Source: a virus (lineage: Duplodnaviria > Heunggongvirae > Uroviricota > Caudoviricetes). From it: a stretch of DNA of 6,195 bases. Where the stretch lies: the IMG/VR virus record IMGVR_UViG_2728369186_000004. The stretch is one strand, 5' to 3'. The position numbers were made by a program, and so were the translations under genes. Shown piece after piece: positions 1 to 6,195 of this stretch (its first letter is position 1; each line of letters begins with the position of its first letter). The notes beneath the pieces were generated by a model. That model searched no databases, was not told where the DNA came from, and was given only the letters and a program-made list of their open reading frames with translations.

Positions 1-93
1 TGTTCTGAGGTGAGCATATCACCTCTGTTCAGGTGGCCAAATTCAGTAAACCACTTCAGAACCTTATTTCATGCAAATGAGATCTACAATTAG
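1..93 (+). CDS. 3' end of an upstream gene (partial, unknown product); frame 1 open from window edge to TAG at 91-93
   Basis: Frame 1 has no stop from position 1 until TAG 91-93 (...CSEVSISPLFRWPNSVNHFRTLFHANEIYN*), overlapping the tail-fibre start by 23 nt. Only 30 codons visible, no motif recognised. Confidence 0.3.
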   Translation, partial: CSEVSISPLFRWPNSVNHFRTLFHANEIYN

Positions 94-1480
94 CTGGGAC
101 GATCAGGACAAAGAAGCACTGGAAGACCTGATTGGTTTACAAGACCGCTTAGATGAAACTATCGCGGATGCTATTGCTCAAGCTGGCGCTAATGCCGATG
201 CTAAAATTGATGCAATGCATAAGCAAATCACTACCGAAACAGGGCAGACGGTCCAAGCCTCAGCCAATACCTTAAAGAGTCTGATTGCTACCAGCGAGCA
301 AGCTAGCTCCACTAAGATTGATCAGGTTAAAGCTGAACTGAAAGGCGATATCACCAAAGAAGTTAGTGCATCTGCTACTACCCTGAAACAAGCTATTGCT
401 ACCAGTGAAGCAGCAAGCGCAAGCAAGATTGACCAAGTTCGGGTAGAAATGGATGGCAAGATTGCTGGTGTGAATCAGGAAGCGGACGTTAAGATCGATG
501 CTTTGAAGGGAACCATTAACAGCAAATACAATCTAGCAGTTAATGCAGATGGTCGCGTGGCTGGCATTCACATGAGCGCAACCAACGATCCGGCGCAACC
601 GACGAGAATCATCTTTAATGCTGATAAAATCGCGGTAGCTCCACAGAACGGATCGGAAGTATGCCCGTTTGGTATCGAAGGTAACAAGGTTTATCTCGAT
701 AATGCGATGATTCGTAATGCTGCAATTGGTACAGCCCAGATTAATGATGCGGCGATTACCACGGCTAAAATCGGCAATGCTGCAATTAACAGCGCGAAGA
801 TTCAGGACGGGGCAATCACTAACGCGAAGATCGTAAACGGTGCAATTGATAACGCTAAAATCGGTAACTATATCCAGTCTTCCAACTGGAACGGATCGAC
901 CGGATGGCATATCAACAAGAACGGGTCCGCTACGTTCATGAATGCAACCGTTAAAGGTAATATCACTGCTGATTCTGGTACTCTGAACAACGTCACGATT
1001 AACTCTAGCTGTGTTATTAAGGGTATGCTTGAAGCTACTCAGGTTAAGGGTGATTTCGTTAAGGTGATTGGACGTAAGTTCCCGCATCGTGATGTTAACG
1101 TTGATAATGGTTATGCTGGTTATCCACAGGGAACGGTCACTGTTCGCGTTGAAGATGATCACAAGTTCGATCGTCAAATCGTTATTCCGGCTGTTAGTTT
1201 TGGTGGATTGCGAGCGCGTGAAGGGTCGAACAATAATACGTTTTACGACACCTGTCGCCTGATTGTTCGTAAGAATGGGTCAGAGTTGTATAATAGGGCG
1301 TATGGCGGTAATACTGGTCTTTACTCAGGTGTTATTGATATGCCAGCGGGTAAAGGTGCTGTGACCTTGACCTTTGAAGTGCAATCAAGCGCAATCAACA
1401 ACTGGACGCCTAGCACATGGATCAGTGATTTAACTGTAATGGTAACTAAAAAAGCAACTACCGGTATTACTGTTTCTTAA
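71..1480 (+). CDS. Phage tail fibre / receptor-binding protein (469 aa)
   Basis: Complete ORF ATG 71 to TAA 1478-1480. N-terminal Ala/Ser/Thr/Gln-rich segment with KID-containing repeats of ~37 aa (KIDAM, KIDQV, KIDQV, KIDAL). Central array of 10-residue repeats IRNAAIGTAQ / INDAAITTAK / IGNAAINSAK / IQDGAITNAK / IVNGAIDNAK, typical of tail-fibre shafts. Gly/Asn/Thr-rich C-terminal ~200 aa consistent with a receptor-binding tip. No obvious SD; start probably coupled to the overlapping upstream ORF. In-frame stop at 47-49 rules out 5' extension in this frame. Confidence 0.75.
   Translation: MQMRSTISWDDQDKEALEDLIGLQDRLDETIADAIAQAGANADAKIDAMHKQITTETGQTVQASANTLKSLIATSEQASSTKIDQVKAELKGDITKEVSASATTLKQAIATSEAASASKIDQVRVEMDGKIAGVNQEADVKIDALKGTINSKYNLAVNADGRVAGIHMSATNDPAQPTRIIFNADKIAVAPQNGSEVCPFGIEGNKVYLDNAMIRNAAIGTAQINDAAITTAKIGNAAINSAKIQDGAITNAKIVNGAIDNAKIGNYIQSSNWNGSTGWHINKNGSATFMNATVKGNITADSGTLNNVTINSSCVIKGMLEATQVKGDFVKVIGRKFPHRDVNVDNGYAGYPQGTVTVRVEDDHKFDRQIVIPAVSFGGLRAREGSNNNTFYDTCRLIVRKNGSELYNRAYGGNTGLYSGVIDMPAGKGAVTLTFEVQSSAINNWTPSTWISDLTVMVTKKATTGITVS
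707..871 (+). repeat. Tandem degenerate 30-bp (10-codon) coding repeats, 5-6 copies, inside tail fibre gene
   Basis: Protein residues ~213-267 form consecutive decapeptides with pattern I-x-[ND]-[AG]-A-I-x-x-A-[KQ]; the underlying DNA shows the matching 30-nt periodicity (e.g. atcggcaatgctgcaattaacagcgcgaag / attcaggacggggcaatcactaacgcgaag). Confidence 0.6.
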
Positions 1481-1498
1481 AAATTTAATTTTAATAAT

Positions 1499-1540
1499 TA
1501 ATCCCGCTTAATTCTTTAGAGTTAGGCGGGATTATTTTTA
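1499..1540 (+). terminator. Rho-independent terminator after tail fibre gene
   Basis: Inverted repeat taATCCCGCttaa (1499-1511) / ttagGCGGGATta (1522-1534) with one G-U position and a ~10-nt loop, followed by tttta T-run (1535-1540), 19 nt after the tail-fibre stop. Confidence 0.6.
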
Positions 1541-1586
1541 TCTAAATAATTTTGCCATTAAACTATATAAAAATATCGGGGGCGTA

Positions 1587-1865
1587 ATGACTGAAATTAT
1601 ATATGGCGGTATCGGTGTTATCGCCTTAATTTGTGGTGGTCTTTGGAGACTTCACCGAAATCAATTAGCAACTGAAAATAGATTGTCGAAATTGGAATCC
1701 AGCGACGCATTGTTAAACCAGAAGTTTGAGACGATGCAAAGTAACCATGACCAGATCGCCGAGAGAGTTTATCGCATGGAACAAACACTACACGGTATAG
1801 AGAAGAAAGTGGTTGCGATGGACGCCAAATTTGACCAAGTTCTCGACATACTCAAACAAAAATAA
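1587..1865 (+). CDS. Small membrane protein, N-terminal transmembrane helix plus coiled-coil (92 aa); possible holin/lysis-associated or exclusion protein
   Basis: Strong SD cGGGGGcg (1577-1583) 4-9 nt before ATG 1587. Residues 4-20 IIYGGIGVIALICGGLW hydrophobic, followed by RLHRNQ (positive-inside suggests N-out/C-in). Remainder has heptad-like charged/hydrophobic periodicity (coiled coil). No family recognised with confidence. Confidence 0.55.
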   Translation: MTEIIYGGIGVIALICGGLWRLHRNQLATENRLSKLESSDALLNQKFETMQSNHDQIAERVYRMEQTLHGIEKKVVAMDAKFDQVLDILKQK

Positions 1866-1886
1866 TAATAATAAAGGGGTGAATAT

Positions 1887-2057
1887 ATGAAGAATAAACT
1901 TAAGAAATATTTTGGTTATCTCTTGATTATCGCCCTCACTTATAACGTAGCAATTAGACCTCTGCTAACGTCCTTTGGGCTTGAACTCCCGGCTATGACC
2001 GTGGATGAACAATTGCTAAGGACACTGGCGGGGGTCTTTTCGTTATTAGGGGGATAA
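1887..2057 (+). CDS. Small membrane protein (56 aa), not in ORF track; holin-like candidate
   Basis: ATG 1887 preceded by SD aaaGGGG (1873-1879, 7-nt spacer). Translation MKNKLKKYFGYLLIIALTYNVAIRPLLTSFGLELPAMTVDEQLLRTLAGVFSLLGG: Lys-rich N-terminus, one clear hydrophobic helix, no Cys (so not a lipoprotein). TAA 2055-2057 lies 1 nt before the ATG of the next gene (coupled). Confidence 0.45.
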   Translation: MKNKLKKYFGYLLIIALTYNVAIRPLLTSFGLELPAMTVDEQLLRTLAGVFSLLGG

Positions 2058-2058
2058 T

Positions 2059-2742
2059 ATGTCAACCAGTGTCAATAAACGTAACGCTCTAAGGACTAAG
2101 AAAGCGTTGAGGCAATGGTCTGAAAAGGCAACCGATACATTCGAAAGGGCAATAGGGGAAGGGGCGATCTTTGCTTCCAGAGCACTCCAGAAGAAGATTA
2201 ACAAGAATGTTGATAGACCTACTCGATGGACTCAGCAAGCTGTAGGTAATACCAACTACAAGAACCGATCAGGGACGAAACACCAAATCTTCATCAAGGG
2301 CGCAAGGGATAAGGACAAGAAGATCGGCAGTCAGGATGACTATCTGAAACACTATTTCGATGGGGGCAAAATCAATAAGCTAGTTCCAATCGCCAACGGC
2401 AGGGTCTTAGACTCCCACGGGAACATTAAGGCCATTAAAGGCGGTAAGATGATGCGTAACATCGAAAACGGCAACTTCATCAAGGTAGAGAACAAGGAAG
2501 GGACTTTTATCATGAAGAAGTACAAGCCTAAGAAATCCCGAACCAAACGCGCTAGGAATGGATCGGCGGTGGCAAAACGTCGCTTAGAGAAACGCACACA
2601 GAAACAGAGTAAGCGAATCGTTGCCGTTAAGTCGGATAAAATTTCTACTCGTTATTCGACGCTAGGATCGTGGGAAAGCAACGAAGCAATGATGCTTGAA
2701 AACATCAATAAGCACATTAAATCGCGCATGAGATACGTTTAA
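2059..2742 (+). CDS. Lysine/arginine-rich basic protein of unknown function (227 aa); possible nucleic-acid-binding protein
   Basis: ATG 2059 with SD aGGGGGa (2048-2054). No hydrophobic segment. Very high K/R content including KKYKPKKSRTKRARNGSAVAKRRLEKRTQKQSKR. Tightly coupled to the preceding small membrane gene. No family recognised. Confidence 0.55.
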   Translation: MSTSVNKRNALRTKKALRQWSEKATDTFERAIGEGAIFASRALQKKINKNVDRPTRWTQQAVGNTNYKNRSGTKHQIFIKGARDKDKKIGSQDDYLKHYFDGGKINKLVPIANGRVLDSHGNIKAIKGGKMMRNIENGNFIKVENKEGTFIMKKYKPKKSRTKRARNGSAVAKRRLEKRTQKQSKRIVAVKSDKISTRYSTLGSWESNEAMMLENINKHIKSRMRYV

Positions 2743-2751
2743 TCCATAAAT

Positions 2752-2775
2752 ACCCTCATAGAATCTTATGGGGGT
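2752..2775 (+). promoter_or_regulatory. RNA hairpin sequestering the Shine-Dalgarno of the downstream 115-aa gene
   Basis: ACCCTCATA (2752-2760) pairs with TATGGGGGT (2767-2775): 9 bp with one G-U, 6-nt loop. The paired right arm contains the GGGGG SD (2770-2774) of the ATG at 2781. No T-tract follows, so not a typical terminator. Confidence 0.35.
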
Positions 2776-2780
2776 ATAAC

Positions 2781-3128
2781 ATGGCTAAAAATATTTTCAC
2801 TGAATTTCCTACTTATCCGGTCGACCAGCTTTCCGGTATTTTTATCAATGGCATTAGCCCAGAATCCATGACACATGATTTTGAGGCGAAGAGAGTTAAA
2901 CATAAACAATATAAAGAATGTATCCGCGATCATGAAAAAGGGACCGTGTTTTGTGTCGCTACATTGGCTAAACGTCCTAAATATCGTTTTCGTGTAGGGC
3001 AAGAAGTCGATGTAGTTAATCCTTATAGTTTTAACTGTCTGGGTGATGCACGCGCGGTGTGTGTAGGCACAACTAATTACTACATTAAAGGACTCAGATT
3101 TACCGGGTATATAATGGAATACATCTAA
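2781..3128 (+). CDS. Hypothetical protein (115 aa), unknown function
   Basis: ATG 2781 with GGGGG SD 6 nt upstream; ORF ends TAA 3126-3128 and is followed by a strong intrinsic terminator. Protein has 4 Cys and several His but no motif I can assign. Confidence 0.5.
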   Translation: MAKNIFTEFPTYPVDQLSGIFINGISPESMTHDFEAKRVKHKQYKECIRDHEKGTVFCVATLAKRPKYRFRVGQEVDVVNPYSFNCLGDARAVCVGTTNYYIKGLRFTGYIMEYI

Positions 3129-3142
3129 CTCTAATAAATACA

Positions 3143-3169
3143 AGCGACCAATTTCGGTCGCTTTTTTAT
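3143..3169 (+). terminator. Rho-independent terminator between the 115-aa gene and the Zn-ribbon gene
   Basis: AGCGACC (3143-3149) / GGTCGCT (3156-3162), perfect 7-bp GC-rich stem, loop aatttc, followed by TTTTTATT (3163-3169). Confidence 0.7.
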
Positions 3170-3180
3170 TTGGAGGAATC

Positions 3181-4218
3181 ATGGAGATTTTATTTGCTGA
3201 ATATATCAACTACACCGGATTTACAAGAAAAACGCCTCTTGACTATGAACCTATTGCCATTAAACGTTGTGATGAGTTGGGGTACATCTATAACGGTTTT
3301 GTTGTGCCGTGGAAAGGGCAACATACACCCGTTTCTATAACCTGCAAGAAACATAGCACAACGCGAACAATTGCTTTCAAAACTCTTAAAAAACAAGGTG
3401 CGTGTCTTGAATGCTATAAAGAATCATTAAAACTTCCTAAGAAAAAGAATAGAGATAAGGAAGCTGTACTAGATAAAGCAAGCAATGTGCTGGAACGCAA
3501 AGATATGGTTTTAGTTGGATTGTTAGAAGATTATAAAGGATTAGACACAAAAGTTTCTTATAAGTGCAATTGCTGTGATACTGCATACGAAACCATAATC
3601 ACTAGAATCATAAACGATGATGCTGGGTGTCGTCATTGTGGGTCAATTAAGAGAGGAATCAATAAGAGAAAACACACAGACGACGAATGGATGGATCTAA
3701 TTGAGCATGAATGCAGGAACAAACGACTTGAATTAATAGAACAACCTAAATCTCCTATATTGTCAACATCAAAAATACACATCAAATGTGAAAAAGGTCA
3801 TCTTTCTGATTCTTTGGTAGTTTATGGTTTAGTGTATGAAAACTTAGGCTGTCCATGTTGTTCTAAAAATGGTTATAACAGAAGTAAGTCGGGAGTTTTC
3901 TACGTTCAACAGGTCGGAGATTATATAAAATATGGAATAACAAACCATCTAAACCCACAAAAGCGAGTAACTCAACAAGCTAGGGAATCAGGGTTAAAAC
4001 ACAAGTTATTGTGGTATATAACGTTCGGTGACGGAAAAGTTGCCAATGACCTAGAGTATTCCGTAAAACATAACATAGGAAATCACGCTGCACCAAAAGA
4101 ACTAATCCCAGACGGATATACAGAAACATGTGACATAACCAAAGAAGCGCAGATTAGAAAAATGGCAATGGATTTTTGTAAAAACTCCAACAACTATAAA
4201 ATTACATATAGGGGGTAA
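3181..4218 (+). CDS. Protein with three tandem ~74-aa zinc-ribbon repeats and a C-terminal GIY-YIG/T5orf172-like domain (345 aa); candidate homing-endonuclease-like or DNA-binding nuclease-family protein
   Basis: SD GGAGG (3172-3176), ATG 3181. Metal-ligand sets at exactly 74-residue spacing: C55-x2-H58...C75-x2-C78; C129-x-C131C132...C150-x2-C153; C203-x3-H207...C224-x-C226C227, with flanking similarity (WKGQHTPVSITC / YKGLDTKVSYKC). C-terminus has GVFYVQQVGDYIKYGIT (GIY...YIG-like paired motifs), an Arg ~10 residues later (PQKRVTQQ) and downstream Glu (LEYSVKH, GYTETCD). Stop TAA 4216-4218 is 1 nt before the next ATG. Function inferred from motif spacing only. Confidence 0.55.
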   Translation: MEILFAEYINYTGFTRKTPLDYEPIAIKRCDELGYIYNGFVVPWKGQHTPVSITCKKHSTTRTIAFKTLKKQGACLECYKESLKLPKKKNRDKEAVLDKASNVLERKDMVLVGLLEDYKGLDTKVSYKCNCCDTAYETIITRIINDDAGCRHCGSIKRGINKRKHTDDEWMDLIEHECRNKRLELIEQPKSPILSTSKIHIKCEKGHLSDSLVVYGLVYENLGCPCCSKNGYNRSKSGVFYVQQVGDYIKYGITNHLNPQKRVTQQARESGLKHKLLWYITFGDGKVANDLEYSVKHNIGNHAAPKELIPDGYTETCDITKEAQIRKMAMDFCKNSNNYKITYRG

Positions 4219-4219
4219 T

Positions 4220-4573
4220 ATGTTAAGTAAGCATTTTTCTCGCAAGGAATTTAAATGTAAATGCGGAAAATGTGATTATGATACAATCGACGCTGAATTA
4301 CTGGTGATTCTTGAGGATGTACGCGAACACTTTGGGAAACCAGTGATTATTAACAGCGGGAACCGTTGTCCGAATCATAATAAGAATGTTGGCGGTGCAA
4401 CCAATAGCTATCATGTTCGAGGCCGTGCGGCTGACATATCAGTGAAAGGAATTTCTCCTGATATTGTTCATGCTTATCTTGATGGGAAGTATCCTACTCA
4501 ATACGGCTTAGGAAAATATAAAACCTTTACGCATATTGATTCCAGATCAAAAAAATCACGGTGGAATGGATAA
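4220..4573 (+). CDS. Peptidase M15-family (zinc D-Ala-D-Ala carboxypeptidase-like) cell-wall hydrolase; probable endolysin (117 aa)
   Basis: ATG 4220 with GGGGG SD (4211-4215) inside the 3' end of the upstream gene. Motifs FSRKEF...SGNRCPNHNKNVGG...SYH-x6-D (H-VRGRAA-D) and C-terminal FTHID match the metal-binding signature of Peptidase_M15-type phage lysins. No signal peptide or TM segment. Confidence 0.75.
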   Translation: MLSKHFSRKEFKCKCGKCDYDTIDAELLVILEDVREHFGKPVIINSGNRCPNHNKNVGGATNSYHVRGRAADISVKGISPDIVHAYLDGKYPTQYGLGKYKTFTHIDSRSKKSRWNG

Positions 4574-4763
4574 AACAAAAGCGCCTCTGGTGGGCGCTTT
4601 TTTGTTAGAATATGCTGGCGACGTTAGCTATATTTCTGACCATTTTTTCATTATAGACAAATATACCGCAGACGATAAAGTCGTTTTTGACGAAGTAGAT
4701 CCGTCTCTGGTTGAAGTAATGAAAGAACCGGAAGACCTAGAGCTTGATTTAAGCCAATTATAG
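4566..4763 (+). CDS. Questionable small acidic ORF (65 aa from ATG 4566)
   Basis: Track ORF 4536-4763 overlaps the peptidase gene and reads through the terminator hairpin at 4577-4604. The only ATG (4566) has a poorly spaced SD. C-terminus highly acidic (DEVDPSLVEVMKEPEDLELDLSQL). Listed for completeness; probably not a real gene. Confidence 0.2.
   Translation: MDKTKAPLVGAFLLEYAGDVSYISDHFFIIDKYTADDKVVFDEVDPSLVEVMKEPEDLELDLSQL
4577..4604 (+). terminator. Rho-independent terminator after the peptidase gene
   Basis: aaaaGCGCC (4577-4585) / GGCGCtttt (4593-4601), loop tctggtg, then T-run to 4603; begins 4 nt after the TAA at 4571-4573. Confidence 0.55.
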
Positions 4764-4787
4764 ACTCTCTAACGCAATTAAATTAAA

Positions 4788-4809
4788 AAGGGGTACGGAT
4801 GTACCCCTT
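4788..4809 (-). terminator. Rho-independent terminator for the minus-strand recombinase/small-ORF transcript
   Basis: AAGGGGTAC (4788-4796) / GTACCCCTT (4801-4809), 9-bp stem, 4-nt loop. On the minus strand the stem is followed by TTTTTAATTT (complement of 4778-4787); on the plus strand only an A-tract precedes it. Confidence 0.6.
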
Positions 4810-4845
4810 AAAGCGTTTGGTTCGTTATACGGCGATTTAGGCCGC

Positions 4846-5103
4846 CTATGATTTATTTTCTTGTTCTATGAAAATCTTTCTCACCTCATCAGAATAAATG
4901 TCTAGTGATTCCTCATAACATTTTCTGTATTCACCGTAATTACTGGTGGTCTTTTGACATAGCAATTTCAATGTCTTATGTGCTCCATCAATGAAAGCAT
5001 CTTCTCTATAGGTTAGCGGTCTACGCATTTCTTGGTCTACGGTTGCCAATGCCAGGCAAGAATTCATAGATAAAATCAAACCTAAAATCTTAATCATCTT
5101 CAT
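4846..5103 (-). CDS. Small secreted protein (about 85 aa with predicted Sec signal peptide), unknown function
   Basis: Track ORF begins at a TTG (5118-5116); first ATG is at 5103-5101 (MKMIKILGLILSMNSCLALA|TVDQ...): basic n-region, hydrophobic core, ALA cleavage motif. Not a canonical lipobox (MNSC). Mature part ~65 aa with 2 Cys. Starts 5 nt after the recombinase stop, so co-transcribed. Confidence 0.5.
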   Translation of the reverse strand: MKMIKILGLILSMNSCLALATVDQEMRRPLTYREDAFIDGAHKTLKLLCQKTTSNYGEYRKCYEESLDIYSDEVRKIFIEQENKS

Positions 5104-5107
5104 TAGC

Positions 5108-6064
5108 TTAAATTCCAAATTCTTGTAATGGACCTGGTATTTCTTCTTCTGGTTTCCAGTTCTTATCTGTCAGCATGTCTAAACATGGATGCAGAACAAG
5201 CCCGTTACTCTCCAGAATCTGCCTATCATTGATAGTCTTCAAATCAACGAAGATCCGGCCTTTCCTCGGTCCTCTTGAATTTTCTATTACAACTCTCTGG
5301 GTCTTGCCATCGATGTATTCCAGTACAAACAAGTTTTTGTACTTGTCAATCCTGCTACACCCGATCCGTTTTAGAGCTTGCTTAATCTTAAACCGGACCT
5401 TAATGCGATCCTCGTTGTAAACATCTTCTAAATCAAATTCTGCGAGCTTCTCCCAGCCTTGAGAGTCAACAGAATACATTTCCTCTTCTGCCATCTTAAT
5501 TTGATTGTAGAGTGTTTCACGCTCGCTATTGAGGGTAGTAATCTGATCGGCTAGCTCCTTCGTTGCTCCTGTCATAGCAGAAAGGGTAATCAGGTTATCA
5601 ATCTTGCGTGATATTTCATCAATCTGTACTTTCAAAGCCGGAACCGGATTAGCCTTATCTTCAGCAATCCAGATTTTATCAGCCAGCAATTGCAATACAG
5701 CTTTCTCTAATTGGTCGCCGCGAAAACTCCAGTTTGTATGCACACATTCAATACGACTAGAGCGCATTGCATCGCATGAATAACGATATTGGTTAGGCCG
5801 TCTGTTTGTTCCTTTCACCTTAACCATAGCGGAACCGCAATGTTCACATTTCAATAGACCAACACCACTAAGCAAGGGAATAGGTTTAACTTCTTCTTTG
5901 TCTCCAAAGTTACATGCTCTAACACCAATGCTTTTCTTAAGGTGATAAAACTCAGCGTCATCTAGCACACGAGGATAATAATCCTTTAACTCATACTTAA
6001 CGCCATCTACAGAGATTTCCTTGATACCAATCAAAGCGCGGGTATGGAACAACCTTTCAATCAT
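5108..6064 (-). CDS. Large serine recombinase, C-terminal portion only (end of recombinase domain, zinc ribbon, coiled-coil); N-terminal catalytic domain not encoded in frame, so possibly truncated or a pseudogene
   Basis: Zinc-ribbon motif LLSGVGLLKCEHCGSAMVKVKG...YRYSCDAMRSSRIECVHTNWSFRGDQLEKAVLQLL (C73, C76, C97, C107), followed by a long predicted coiled-coil, typical of large serine recombinases. No resolvase-type catalytic domain precedes it. The frame stays open upstream of ATG 6064 to an in-frame TAG at 6167-6169, and that stretch (LNATYTPPPAASHKRHSNWSRA-MIERLFHTRALIG) still resembles the recombinase domain (W-x4-[VI]-x-R-[IL]...Y/L-x-G). Confidence 0.7.
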   Translation of the reverse strand: MIERLFHTRALIGIKEISVDGVKYELKDYYPRVLDDAEFYHLKKSIGVRACNFGDKEEVKPIPLLSGVGLLKCEHCGSAMVKVKGTNRRPNQYRYSCDAMRSSRIECVHTNWSFRGDQLEKAVLQLLADKIWIAEDKANPVPALKVQIDEISRKIDNLITLSAMTGATKELADQITTLNSERETLYNQIKMAEEEMYSVDSQGWEKLAEFDLEDVYNEDRIKVRFKIKQALKRIGCSRIDKYKNLFVLEYIDGKTQRVVIENSRGPRKGRIFVDLKTINDRQILESNGLVLHPCLDMLTDKNWKPEEEIPGPLQEFGI

Positions 6065-6195
6065 TGCCCGTGACCAGTTTGAATGCCTCTTGTGACTTGC
6101 GGCTGGTGGTGGTGTGTATGTCGCGTTAAGGTGATCTGATCCTACCCACGTAATATGGACACAGGCCTAAGCGAGGTTCTTGTTTTCAAATTGTT

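What the first reader, a model, noticed from the sequence alone, without database searches (positions are those of the whole stretch)
5108..6195. Large serine recombinase missing its catalytic domain, with recombinase-like sequence continuing upstream of the ATG to an in-frame TAG
The minus-strand ORF has a clear recombinase zinc ribbon and coiled-coil but begins inside the recombinase domain. The 33 codons upstream of the ATG (6065-6166) are stop-free, contain no ATG/GTG/TTG and still look recombinase-like, then hit TAG at 6167-6169. So the gene is either (a) a decayed integrase, (b) interrupted by a frameshift or an insertion (intron or mobile element) with the catalytic exon beyond the window, (c) the displaced 3' fragment of a recombinase gene used as an integration target, or (d) a domesticated catalytic-domain-less DNA-binding derivative expressed from ATG 6064. 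Each option says something different about whether this element can still excise.
Basis: partly seen in the sequence, partly recalled or inferred. Interest (0 to 1): 0.65.

Follow-up and report, generated by a model that had tools for sequence, protein, structure and literature searches.

The report
Prophage integrase gene split by IS3
The "recombinase without a catalytic domain" is the back two-thirds of an ordinary E. coli prophage integrase gene that an IS3 insertion sequence has cut in two, and the rest is out of view only because the draft-assembly contig stops inside that repeated IS.

Summary
The explanation is ordinary. The window is a whole 6195-bp draft contig (LRXS01000064.1, GCA_001571665.1). 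Both ends run 58-59 bp into multi-copy insertion sequences: an IS911-like element on the left and IS3 on the right.

Window 5108-6136 (minus strand) is 100% identical to nt 652-1680 (codons 218-559 plus stop) of an intact 559-aa large serine recombinase found in other E. coli prophages. From 6137 the sequence is the right terminus of IS3, in the same orientation as the recombinase.

The "in-frame TAG" at 6167-6169 is the stop codon of the IS3 transposase. Only 24 of the 34 stop-free upstream codons are recombinase; the other 10 are IS3 terminal sequence.

A simple IS3 insertion with a 3-bp GAT duplication predicts an N-terminal product of exactly 218 aa, ending at the TGA that begins IS3. That exact protein exists as a singleton RefSeq entry (WP_244495929.1, on a 69.5-kb contig). 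Its accession lies 16 numbers from the window ORF's (WP_244495945.1), so the catalytic half very probably survives across the IS in the same genome.

The integrase is inactivated, and the tail-tip gene is also IS-disrupted. I found no sign of domestication. Interest is low.

The parts
5108..6136 (-). 3' fragment of a prophage large serine recombinase (integrase) gene: codons 218-559 plus the stop codon of the 559-aa intact gene
   Evidence: 1029/1029 nt identical to nt 652-1680 of L002:8309-9988(-), WP_000850652.1
5108..6064 (-). Mechanical 318-aa ORF from the first internal ATG (Met242 of the intact protein). RefSeq annotates it as WP_244495945.1, 'zinc ribbon domain-containing protein'
5933..6136 (-). 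Remaining C-terminal two-thirds of the Recombinase domain (PF07508), residues 218-285 of the intact protein
5684..5860 (-). Recombinase zinc beta-ribbon domain (PF13408)
   Evidence: E=4.2e-10, residues 103-161 of the extended ORF
5477..5644 (-). Two long antiparallel helices (ORF residues 141-165 and 169-196), the coiled-coil motif of large serine recombinases
   Evidence: AlphaFold2 single-sequence model; pLDDT 81-92 in this stretch only
6134..6136 (.). ATC (GAT, Asp218 on the gene strand): the inferred 3-bp target-site duplication of the IS3 insertion
   Evidence: Junction sequence. The predicted 218-aa N-terminal product ending in this Asp exists exactly. IS3 elements make 3-5 bp duplications (PMC10379815)
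6137..6195 (-). Right (orfB-proximal) terminus of IS3: the terminal inverted repeat beginning TGATCC, plus the last 8 codons and stop codon of the transposase. The contig ends here
   Evidence: 59/59 identity to 12,668 places in 3,583 E. coli genomes annotated 'IS3-like element IS3 family transposase'
6167..6169 (-). TAG stop codon of the IS3 transposase (orfB/orfAB). By coincidence it is in frame with the recombinase fragment
   Evidence: The CDS end at L004 1631 corresponds to window 6167. The translation QFENKNLA* is identical in L008 and the window
1..58 (-). Left (orfA-proximal) terminus of an IS911-like IS3-family element; the contig starts inside it
   Evidence: 100% identical to thousands of E. 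coli copies lying next to an 'IS3 family transposase'; 93.7% identical to the annotated IS911 of phage Sf6
59..1480 (+). 3' fragment of the lambda-J-like tail tip gene, truncated by the left IS
   Evidence: PF09327 and PF12421 hits. Homology to intact 'phage tail tip' genes starts at window 59. The frame is open back to the junction
4788..4809 (-). Terminator-like hairpin followed by a T-run, downstream of the recombinase gene and the 90-aa ORF

Best explanation
A copy of IS3 (1258 bp) transposed into the large serine integrase gene of a lambdoid-type E. coli prophage, at Asp218 inside the Recombinase domain, in the same orientation as the gene. The insertion splits the gene in two. The first piece is a 218-aa N-terminal part: the resolvase-type catalytic domain with Ser12 and the first 22 residues of the Recombinase domain. 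It terminates at the TGA that forms the first three bases of IS3. The second piece is a 342-codon C-terminal part: the rest of the Recombinase domain, the zinc ribbon, the coiled coil and the C-terminal tail.

The window shows only the second piece because it is an entire short-read contig. The assembler stopped 59 bp into the multi-copy IS3 on the right and 58 bp into an IS911-like element on the left.

The integrase is therefore a recent pseudogene, still 100% identical to intact alleles. The tail-tip gene is IS-disrupted as well, so the prophage should be unable to excise by its own integrase or to make infective particles. The 318-aa ORF from ATG 6064 is an annotation by-product, not a functional truncated protein.

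Shown: the identity of both flanks, the exact breakpoint, the IS3 orientation, the identity of the TAG, and the contig boundaries. Inferred: that the N-terminal half lies directly across the IS in the same genome, and that the fragment is not expressed.
For: -: the window is contig LRXS01000064.1 (6195 bp) of GCA_001571665.1.
- window 4800-6136 matches intact 'recombinase family protein' genes at 99.7-100%, and the homology stops exactly at 6136, which is codon 218 of 559.
- window 6137-6195 is the IS3 right end (59/59), with the transposase on the same strand. Its stop codon maps to 6167-6169.
- the intact orthologue has Resolvase (5-152), Recombinase (197-285) and zinc-ribbon (309-367) domains.
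- the Ser12 motif aligns with the catalytic Ser of PDB entry 3guv.
- the model of a 3-bp GAT duplication followed by the IS3 left end TGATCTT predicts a 218-aa product. That exact sequence is in the collection as the singleton WP_244495929.1 on a 69,493-bp contig. Its accession is 16 away from the singleton WP_244495945.1 encoded in this window.
- neither junction occurs in 5,426 complete E. coli genomes, so this is a private, recent event.
- the left contig end is the mirror case, an IS911-like end abutting a truncated tail-tip gene.
- no sigma-70-like promoter lies on the minus strand upstream of the ATG. The only AAGAGG sits about 19 nt upstream of it.
Against: That the two halves share one genome therefore rests on the exact-sequence prediction and on accession adjacency, not on sequence.

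The full IS3 copy is not in the window, so a partial IS3 or an IS-mediated rearrangement beyond the 59 bp cannot be excluded.

Both other IS3 copies inspected (L004, L008) lack matching flanking repeats. IS3 copies in E. coli are evidently often involved in rearrangements.

Read-through transcription from the IS3 transposase gene into the fragment is possible. No terminator-like site was found between 6167 and 6064.
Confidence: 0.9

Rival explanations
1. IS3-mediated deletion or rearrangement. After insertion, or through recombination between two IS3 copies, the 5' half of the integrase gene and adjacent DNA were lost or moved. The window's fragment would then be an orphan with no catalytic half across the IS.
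For: The two other IS3 copies inspected have non-matching flanks and sit between unrelated pseudogene fragments. The far side of the IS was not seen.
Against: The exact 218-aa product expected from a simple insertion, including the duplicated Asp218 and the immediate TGA, exists as a singleton RefSeq protein. Its accession is 16 away from the window ORF's. A rearrangement would not be expected to preserve the 3-bp duplication.
Confidence: 0.07
2. A domesticated DNA-binding derivative lacking the catalytic domain, expressed from ATG 6064. It might be transcribed by read-through from the IS3 transposase gene, and it might bind att sites or interfere with related integrases.
For: The ORF is intact. 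It retains part of the Recombinase domain, the zinc ribbon and the coiled coil. IS3 is co-oriented with it, and no terminator lies in between.
Against: It is a singleton: one contig in about 15 billion proteins, and zero of 5,426 complete genomes carry the junction. It is 100% identical to the intact gene, so no post-truncation evolution has occurred. No promoter-like site was found and I see no properly spaced ribosome-binding site. The start at Met242 would cut through the Recombinase domain.
Confidence: 0.02
3. A sequencing or assembly artefact: the TAG is an error, or the contig end is chimeric, and the gene is actually intact in the genome.
For: The sequence comes from a draft short-read assembly, and the contig ends in a repeat.
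Against: The 59 bases beyond the breakpoint are a perfect IS3 terminus starting at its first base, not random divergence. The TAG is the genuine transposase stop codon. The complementary N-terminal product exists.
Confidence: 0.01

Closest known systems
IS-disrupted integrase genes of defective or cryptic prophages in E. coli and Shigella (for example the IS629-riddled Sp prophages of O157:H7; this example is recalled from memory and was not checked here)
   Same: An IS3-family element sits inside a prophage integration gene. A second IS sits in a structural (tail) gene. The prophage is otherwise nearly identical to intact relatives. In this same gene family, other strains carry an IS1203/IS629-like insertion after codon 215, an IS1 near the 5' end and frameshifts.
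   Different: Nothing essential differs. This particular junction is private to one assembly.
Large serine recombinases / phage serine integrases (phiC31, Bxb1, A118/LI integrase type)
   Same: The intact orthologue has the canonical architecture: Resolvase catalytic domain, Recombinase domain, zinc ribbon and coiled coil. It is a prophage-end gene next to a disrupted host gene, hicB.
   Different: The window copy lacks residues 1-217, including the catalytic Ser12. By sequence it is distant from solved structures: only the catalytic domain of 3guv matches, at E=0.001.
IS3 of E. coli (IS3 family, copy-out-paste-in, orfA/orfB with programmed -1 frameshift)
   Same: Identity to the right terminus and the transposase C-terminus is 59/59. 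The inferred 3-bp duplication fits the 3-5 bp range reported for IS3 elements.
   Different: Only the terminal 59 bp are visible, because the contig ends there.

Membership tests
Large serine recombinase (phage serine integrase) | N-terminal resolvase-type catalytic domain (PF00239) with the serine nucleophile | tested here: not met
   Absent from the window: the fragment starts at codon 218. No PF00239 hit on the extended ORF, and stops occur in the other two frames of 6000-6195. Present in the intact orthologue at residues 5-152, E=2.1e-14, with Ser12 aligned to the catalytic Ser of 3guv.
Large serine recombinase (phage serine integrase) | Recombinase domain (PF07508) | tested here: inconclusive
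   Only profile positions 35-98 of 102 are present, at 17.3 bits against a 21.1 cut-off. The full domain scores 32.1 bits in the intact orthologue, to which the fragment is 100% identical.
Large serine recombinase (phage serine integrase) | Zinc beta-ribbon domain (PF13408) | tested here: met
   40.3 bits, E=4.2e-10, above the 25.3 cut-off.
Large serine recombinase (phage serine integrase) | Coiled-coil motif embedded after the zinc ribbon | tested here: met
   Helices 141-165 and 169-196 with pLDDT 81-92. The rest of the model is poor, and there is only a weak coiled-coil Pfam hit. No dedicated coiled-coil predictor was run.
Large serine recombinase (phage serine integrase) | Catalyses attP x attB integration and excision | not testable with these tools
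   This needs an experiment. Without the catalytic domain on the same polypeptide, activity is not expected (inference).
IS3 (IS3 family insertion sequence) | Terminal inverted repeat beginning TG..., identical to known IS3 ends | tested here: met
   Window 6137-6195 is 59/59 identical to the IS3 right end in L004 and L008 and to about 12,700 other places.
IS3 (IS3 family insertion sequence) | orfA/orfB transposase with programmed frameshift | not testable with these tools
   Only the last 8 codons and the stop codon lie in the window. The remainder is beyond the contig end.
IS3 (IS3 family insertion sequence) | Short (3 bp) target-site duplication flanking the element | tested here: inconclusive
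   The far junction was not seen. Indirect support: the exact 218-aa product predicted from a GAT duplication exists.
IS911-like IS3-family element (left contig end) | Terminus identical to known copies next to an orfA/orfB transposase | tested here: met
   58/58 identity to E. coli copies lying next to an 'IS3 family transposase'. 93.7% identity to the annotated IS911 left end in phage Sf6.

The most novel reading that the evidence does not exclude
Read-through transcription from the co-oriented IS3 transposase gene could produce the fragment that retains most of the Recombinase domain, the zinc ribbon and the coiled coil. This could happen by weak initiation at ATG 6064 or, more exotically, by read-through of the in-frame transposase TAG. 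The fragment might then bind the prophage att sites or the coiled coil of related integrases. That would act as a dominant-negative lock on excision, or as a barrier to superinfection by phages using the same integrase.
Probability: 0.02. Interest if true: 0.4.

Novelty: already known. Interest (0 to 1): 0.07.

Why it matters
It matters little beyond annotation hygiene. The result shows that WP_244495945.1 ("zinc ribbon domain-containing protein") and WP_244495929.1 ("recombinase family protein") are very probably the two halves of one IS3-split integrase pseudogene. It also shows that the prophage in this strain is most likely locked in place and defective.

For genome scans there is a practical lesson: a truncated gene at a contig end should first be tested for an IS terminus. 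The side observation that this integrase is hit repeatedly by IS elements and frameshifts in different E. coli lineages fits the familiar picture of prophage grounding and decay.

Tried and rejected
- Exact-pattern scans for both IS3 junctions in viral contigs, and for the complementary junction in genome contigs, found nothing.
- A literature search for the assembly accession LRXS00000000 found nothing.
- I tried to verify the 3-bp duplication on two other IS3 copies (L004, L008). Neither has matching flanks, so the duplication length rests on the literature and on general knowledge of IS3.
- Searching the phage collection with the window gave only the two IS ends.
- PDB sequence search of the intact protein hit only one catalytic-domain structure, weakly.
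- The single-sequence AlphaFold model was poor overall (mean pLDDT 44.7). I used it only for the high-confidence helical hairpin and did not take it to fold search.
- Rejected readings: intron or intein, an att-site target of another phage, a sequencing error at the TAG, and a frameshift. The other two frames upstream contain stops and no resolvase-like sequence, and the 59 bases are IS3.

Full report
**Observation.** The minus-strand ORF 5108-6064 (318 aa) exists. Translating the same frame upstream gives QFENKNLA* ACVHITWVGSDHLNATYTPPPAASHKRHSNWSRA M..., with the TAG at 6167-6169. The stop-free stretch 6065-6166 is 34 codons, not 33, and it has no ATG, GTG or TTG. Pfam on the extended ORF gives:
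- Zn_ribbon_recom at E=4.2e-10.
- A sub-threshold partial Recombinase-domain hit: profile positions 35-98 of 102, 17.3 bits against a cut-off of 21.1.

A single-sequence AlphaFold model is poor overall. It does predict two long helices (ORF residues 141-165 and 169-196) with pLDDT 81-92, which fits the coiled-coil motif.

**What the window is.** An exact-protein look-up shows that the window is the complete contig LRXS01000064.1 (6195 bp) of draft assembly GCA_001571665.1. The source names for the window's protein give Escherichia coli. The window's odd length and its ends are properties of an assembly, not of the biology.

**The right end.**
- Against 5,426 complete E. coli genomes, window 4800-6136 matches "recombinase family protein" genes at 99.7-100%. 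In every case the homology stops at 6136.
- The remaining 59 bases (6137-6195) match 12,668 places in 3,583 genomes at up to 100%, annotated "IS3-like element IS3 family transposase".
- In two reference copies the element is 1258 bp. The matched end is the one next to the 3' end of the transposase gene, which runs on the strand corresponding to the window's minus strand.
- The annotated transposase CDS ends at the position equivalent to window 6167. The TAG is therefore the IS3 transposase stop codon, and QFENKNLA is its C-terminus, identical in L008 and the window. That it is in frame with the recombinase fragment is a one-in-three coincidence.
- The 10 codons ACVHITWVGS are the IS3 terminal repeat read in that frame. 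Recombinase sequence starts at DHLNATY.

**The intact gene.** In E. coli 266917_2 the orthologue is 559 aa (WP_000850652.1; L002:8309-9988, minus strand). Its domains are Resolvase (residues 5-152), Recombinase (197-285) and zinc ribbon (309-367). Its YIRFSSMRQ motif aligns with the catalytic-serine motif of PDB entry 3guv, placing the nucleophile at Ser12. Window 5108-6136 is 1029/1029 identical to nt 652-1680 of this gene, so the fragment starts at codon 218, GAT. The gene lies at the end of a prophage, next to three small genes and a truncated hicB, beside ydcR. Window 59-6136 is colinear with that prophage arm in strain HCP5S3_I4. The arm comprises the C-terminal part of a lambda-J-like tail tip protein, small ORFs, an endonuclease-like gene, an M15 endolysin and the integrase.

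**Where the catalytic half is.** IS3 elements duplicate 3-5 bp of target (PMC10379815); 3 bp for IS3 itself is my own knowledge. With a GAT duplication, the upstream half would read ...GAG ATA CTG GAT followed by the IS3 left end TGATCTTACCC. That gives a product of residues 1-218 ending at the TGA formed by the first three IS3 bases. I made this prediction before looking it up.
- That exact 218-aa sequence is in the 15-billion-protein collection as WP_244495929.1. It is seen on a single contig of 69,493 bp.
- The window ORF is WP_244495945.1, also a singleton.
- The two accession numbers are 16 apart. This indicates they were created in the same re-annotation, and I infer it was of the same assembly.
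Junction scans of other collections were empty.
- The duplicated Asp218 on both sides is the signature of a simple transposition rather than an IS-mediated rearrangement. I give about 0.85-0.9 that the catalytic half lies directly across one IS3.

**The left end.** It mirrors the right. Window 1-58 is the orfA-proximal terminus of an IS911-like IS3-family element: 100% identical to E. coli copies and 93.7% to the annotated IS911 in phage Sf6. Homology to intact tail-tip genes begins at 59. Neither junction is present in any of the 5,426 complete genomes.

**Function.** The integrase is a fresh pseudogene, and with a split tail-tip gene the prophage is defective (inference). I find no support for a domesticated truncated protein:
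- The form is private to one contig.
- It has not diverged from the intact allele.
- No sigma-70-like promoter lies on the minus strand in the 131 nt available upstream.
- The only AAGAGG lies about 19 nt from the ATG.
- Low-level read-through from the co-oriented IS3 transposase gene cannot be excluded, since no terminator-like site lies in between.

**Context in other strains.** The same gene is disrupted independently elsewhere:
- An IS1203/IS629-like element follows codon 215 in a Logan contig.
- IS1 lies near the 5' end of the gene in HCP5S3_I4.
- Frameshifted products occur (P0016, P0021).

This is the usual decay of prophage mobility genes.

**Verdict.** The feature is real and ordinary: an IS3-split integrase gene seen through a contig that breaks in the IS. 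Options (c) and (d) are not supported. Novelty: already known. Interest: low.

Noticed in passing
window 1-58 and 59-1480: The left contig end is the same kind of artefact plus a real event. An IS911-like left terminus abuts a lambda-J-like tail tip gene cut in its middle. The 469-aa ORF from ATG 71 is only the C-terminal part of a protein of more than 1200 aa.
   Followed up: yes
window 6132-6142; L005:10634-10673: Two different IS3-family elements hit this gene 6-9 bp apart in different strains: IS3 at codon 218 here, and an IS1203/IS629-like element after codon 215 in Logan SRR17276658. Each inserted right beside a target sequence that mimics its own terminus: TGATC|TGATCC here, and AACCGCCgag|TGAACCGCC there. 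This may reflect IR-like target preference.
   Followed up: partly
L001:8309-10711; proteins P0016, P0021: This integrase decays recurrently. IS1 lies near the 5' end of the gene in strain HCP5S3_I4, where the annotated CDS is shortened to 532 aa. Frameshifted N-terminal products occur in other assemblies. Many 193-215-aa 'partial' fragments sit at contig ends.
   Followed up: partly
window 3181-4218 (+): A 345-aa ORF rich in CxxC motifs matches phage endonuclease families (phrog_681, E=8.8e-43; phrog_559, HNH endonuclease). The segment 3071-4209 is absent from the otherwise colinear prophage in L002. The same gene is split by IS2 in L001, where the two blast pieces overlap at window 3690-3694, consistent with a 5-bp duplication. 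It looks like a mobile homing-endonuclease-type cassette.
   Followed up: partly
L002:11529-11645; L001:13499-13618: In relatives, the prophage end beyond the integrase abuts a hicB antitoxin gene annotated as missing its N-terminus, next to ydcR. The serine integrase's attB probably lies inside hicB.
   Followed up: no
window 4846-5118 (-), 4788-4809 (-): A 90-aa ORF with a hydrophobic, signal-peptide-like N-terminus overlaps the recombinase stop by 11 nt and is followed by a terminator-like hairpin. Prodigal calls it, but it is not annotated in the RefSeq relatives, and it has no Pfam or PHROG hit.
   Followed up: no
window 6167-6195 (-): The IS3 transposase reading frame is the same as that of the recombinase fragment. 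Suppression of the single TAG would fuse the transposase to the recombinase DNA-binding domains. This is almost certainly a one-in-three coincidence.
   Followed up: no
L004:1601-2858; L008:1401-2658: Both reference IS3 copies examined lack matching 3-bp flanks and sit between fragments of unrelated pseudogenes. This suggests IS3-mediated rearrangements at those loci.
   Followed up: no
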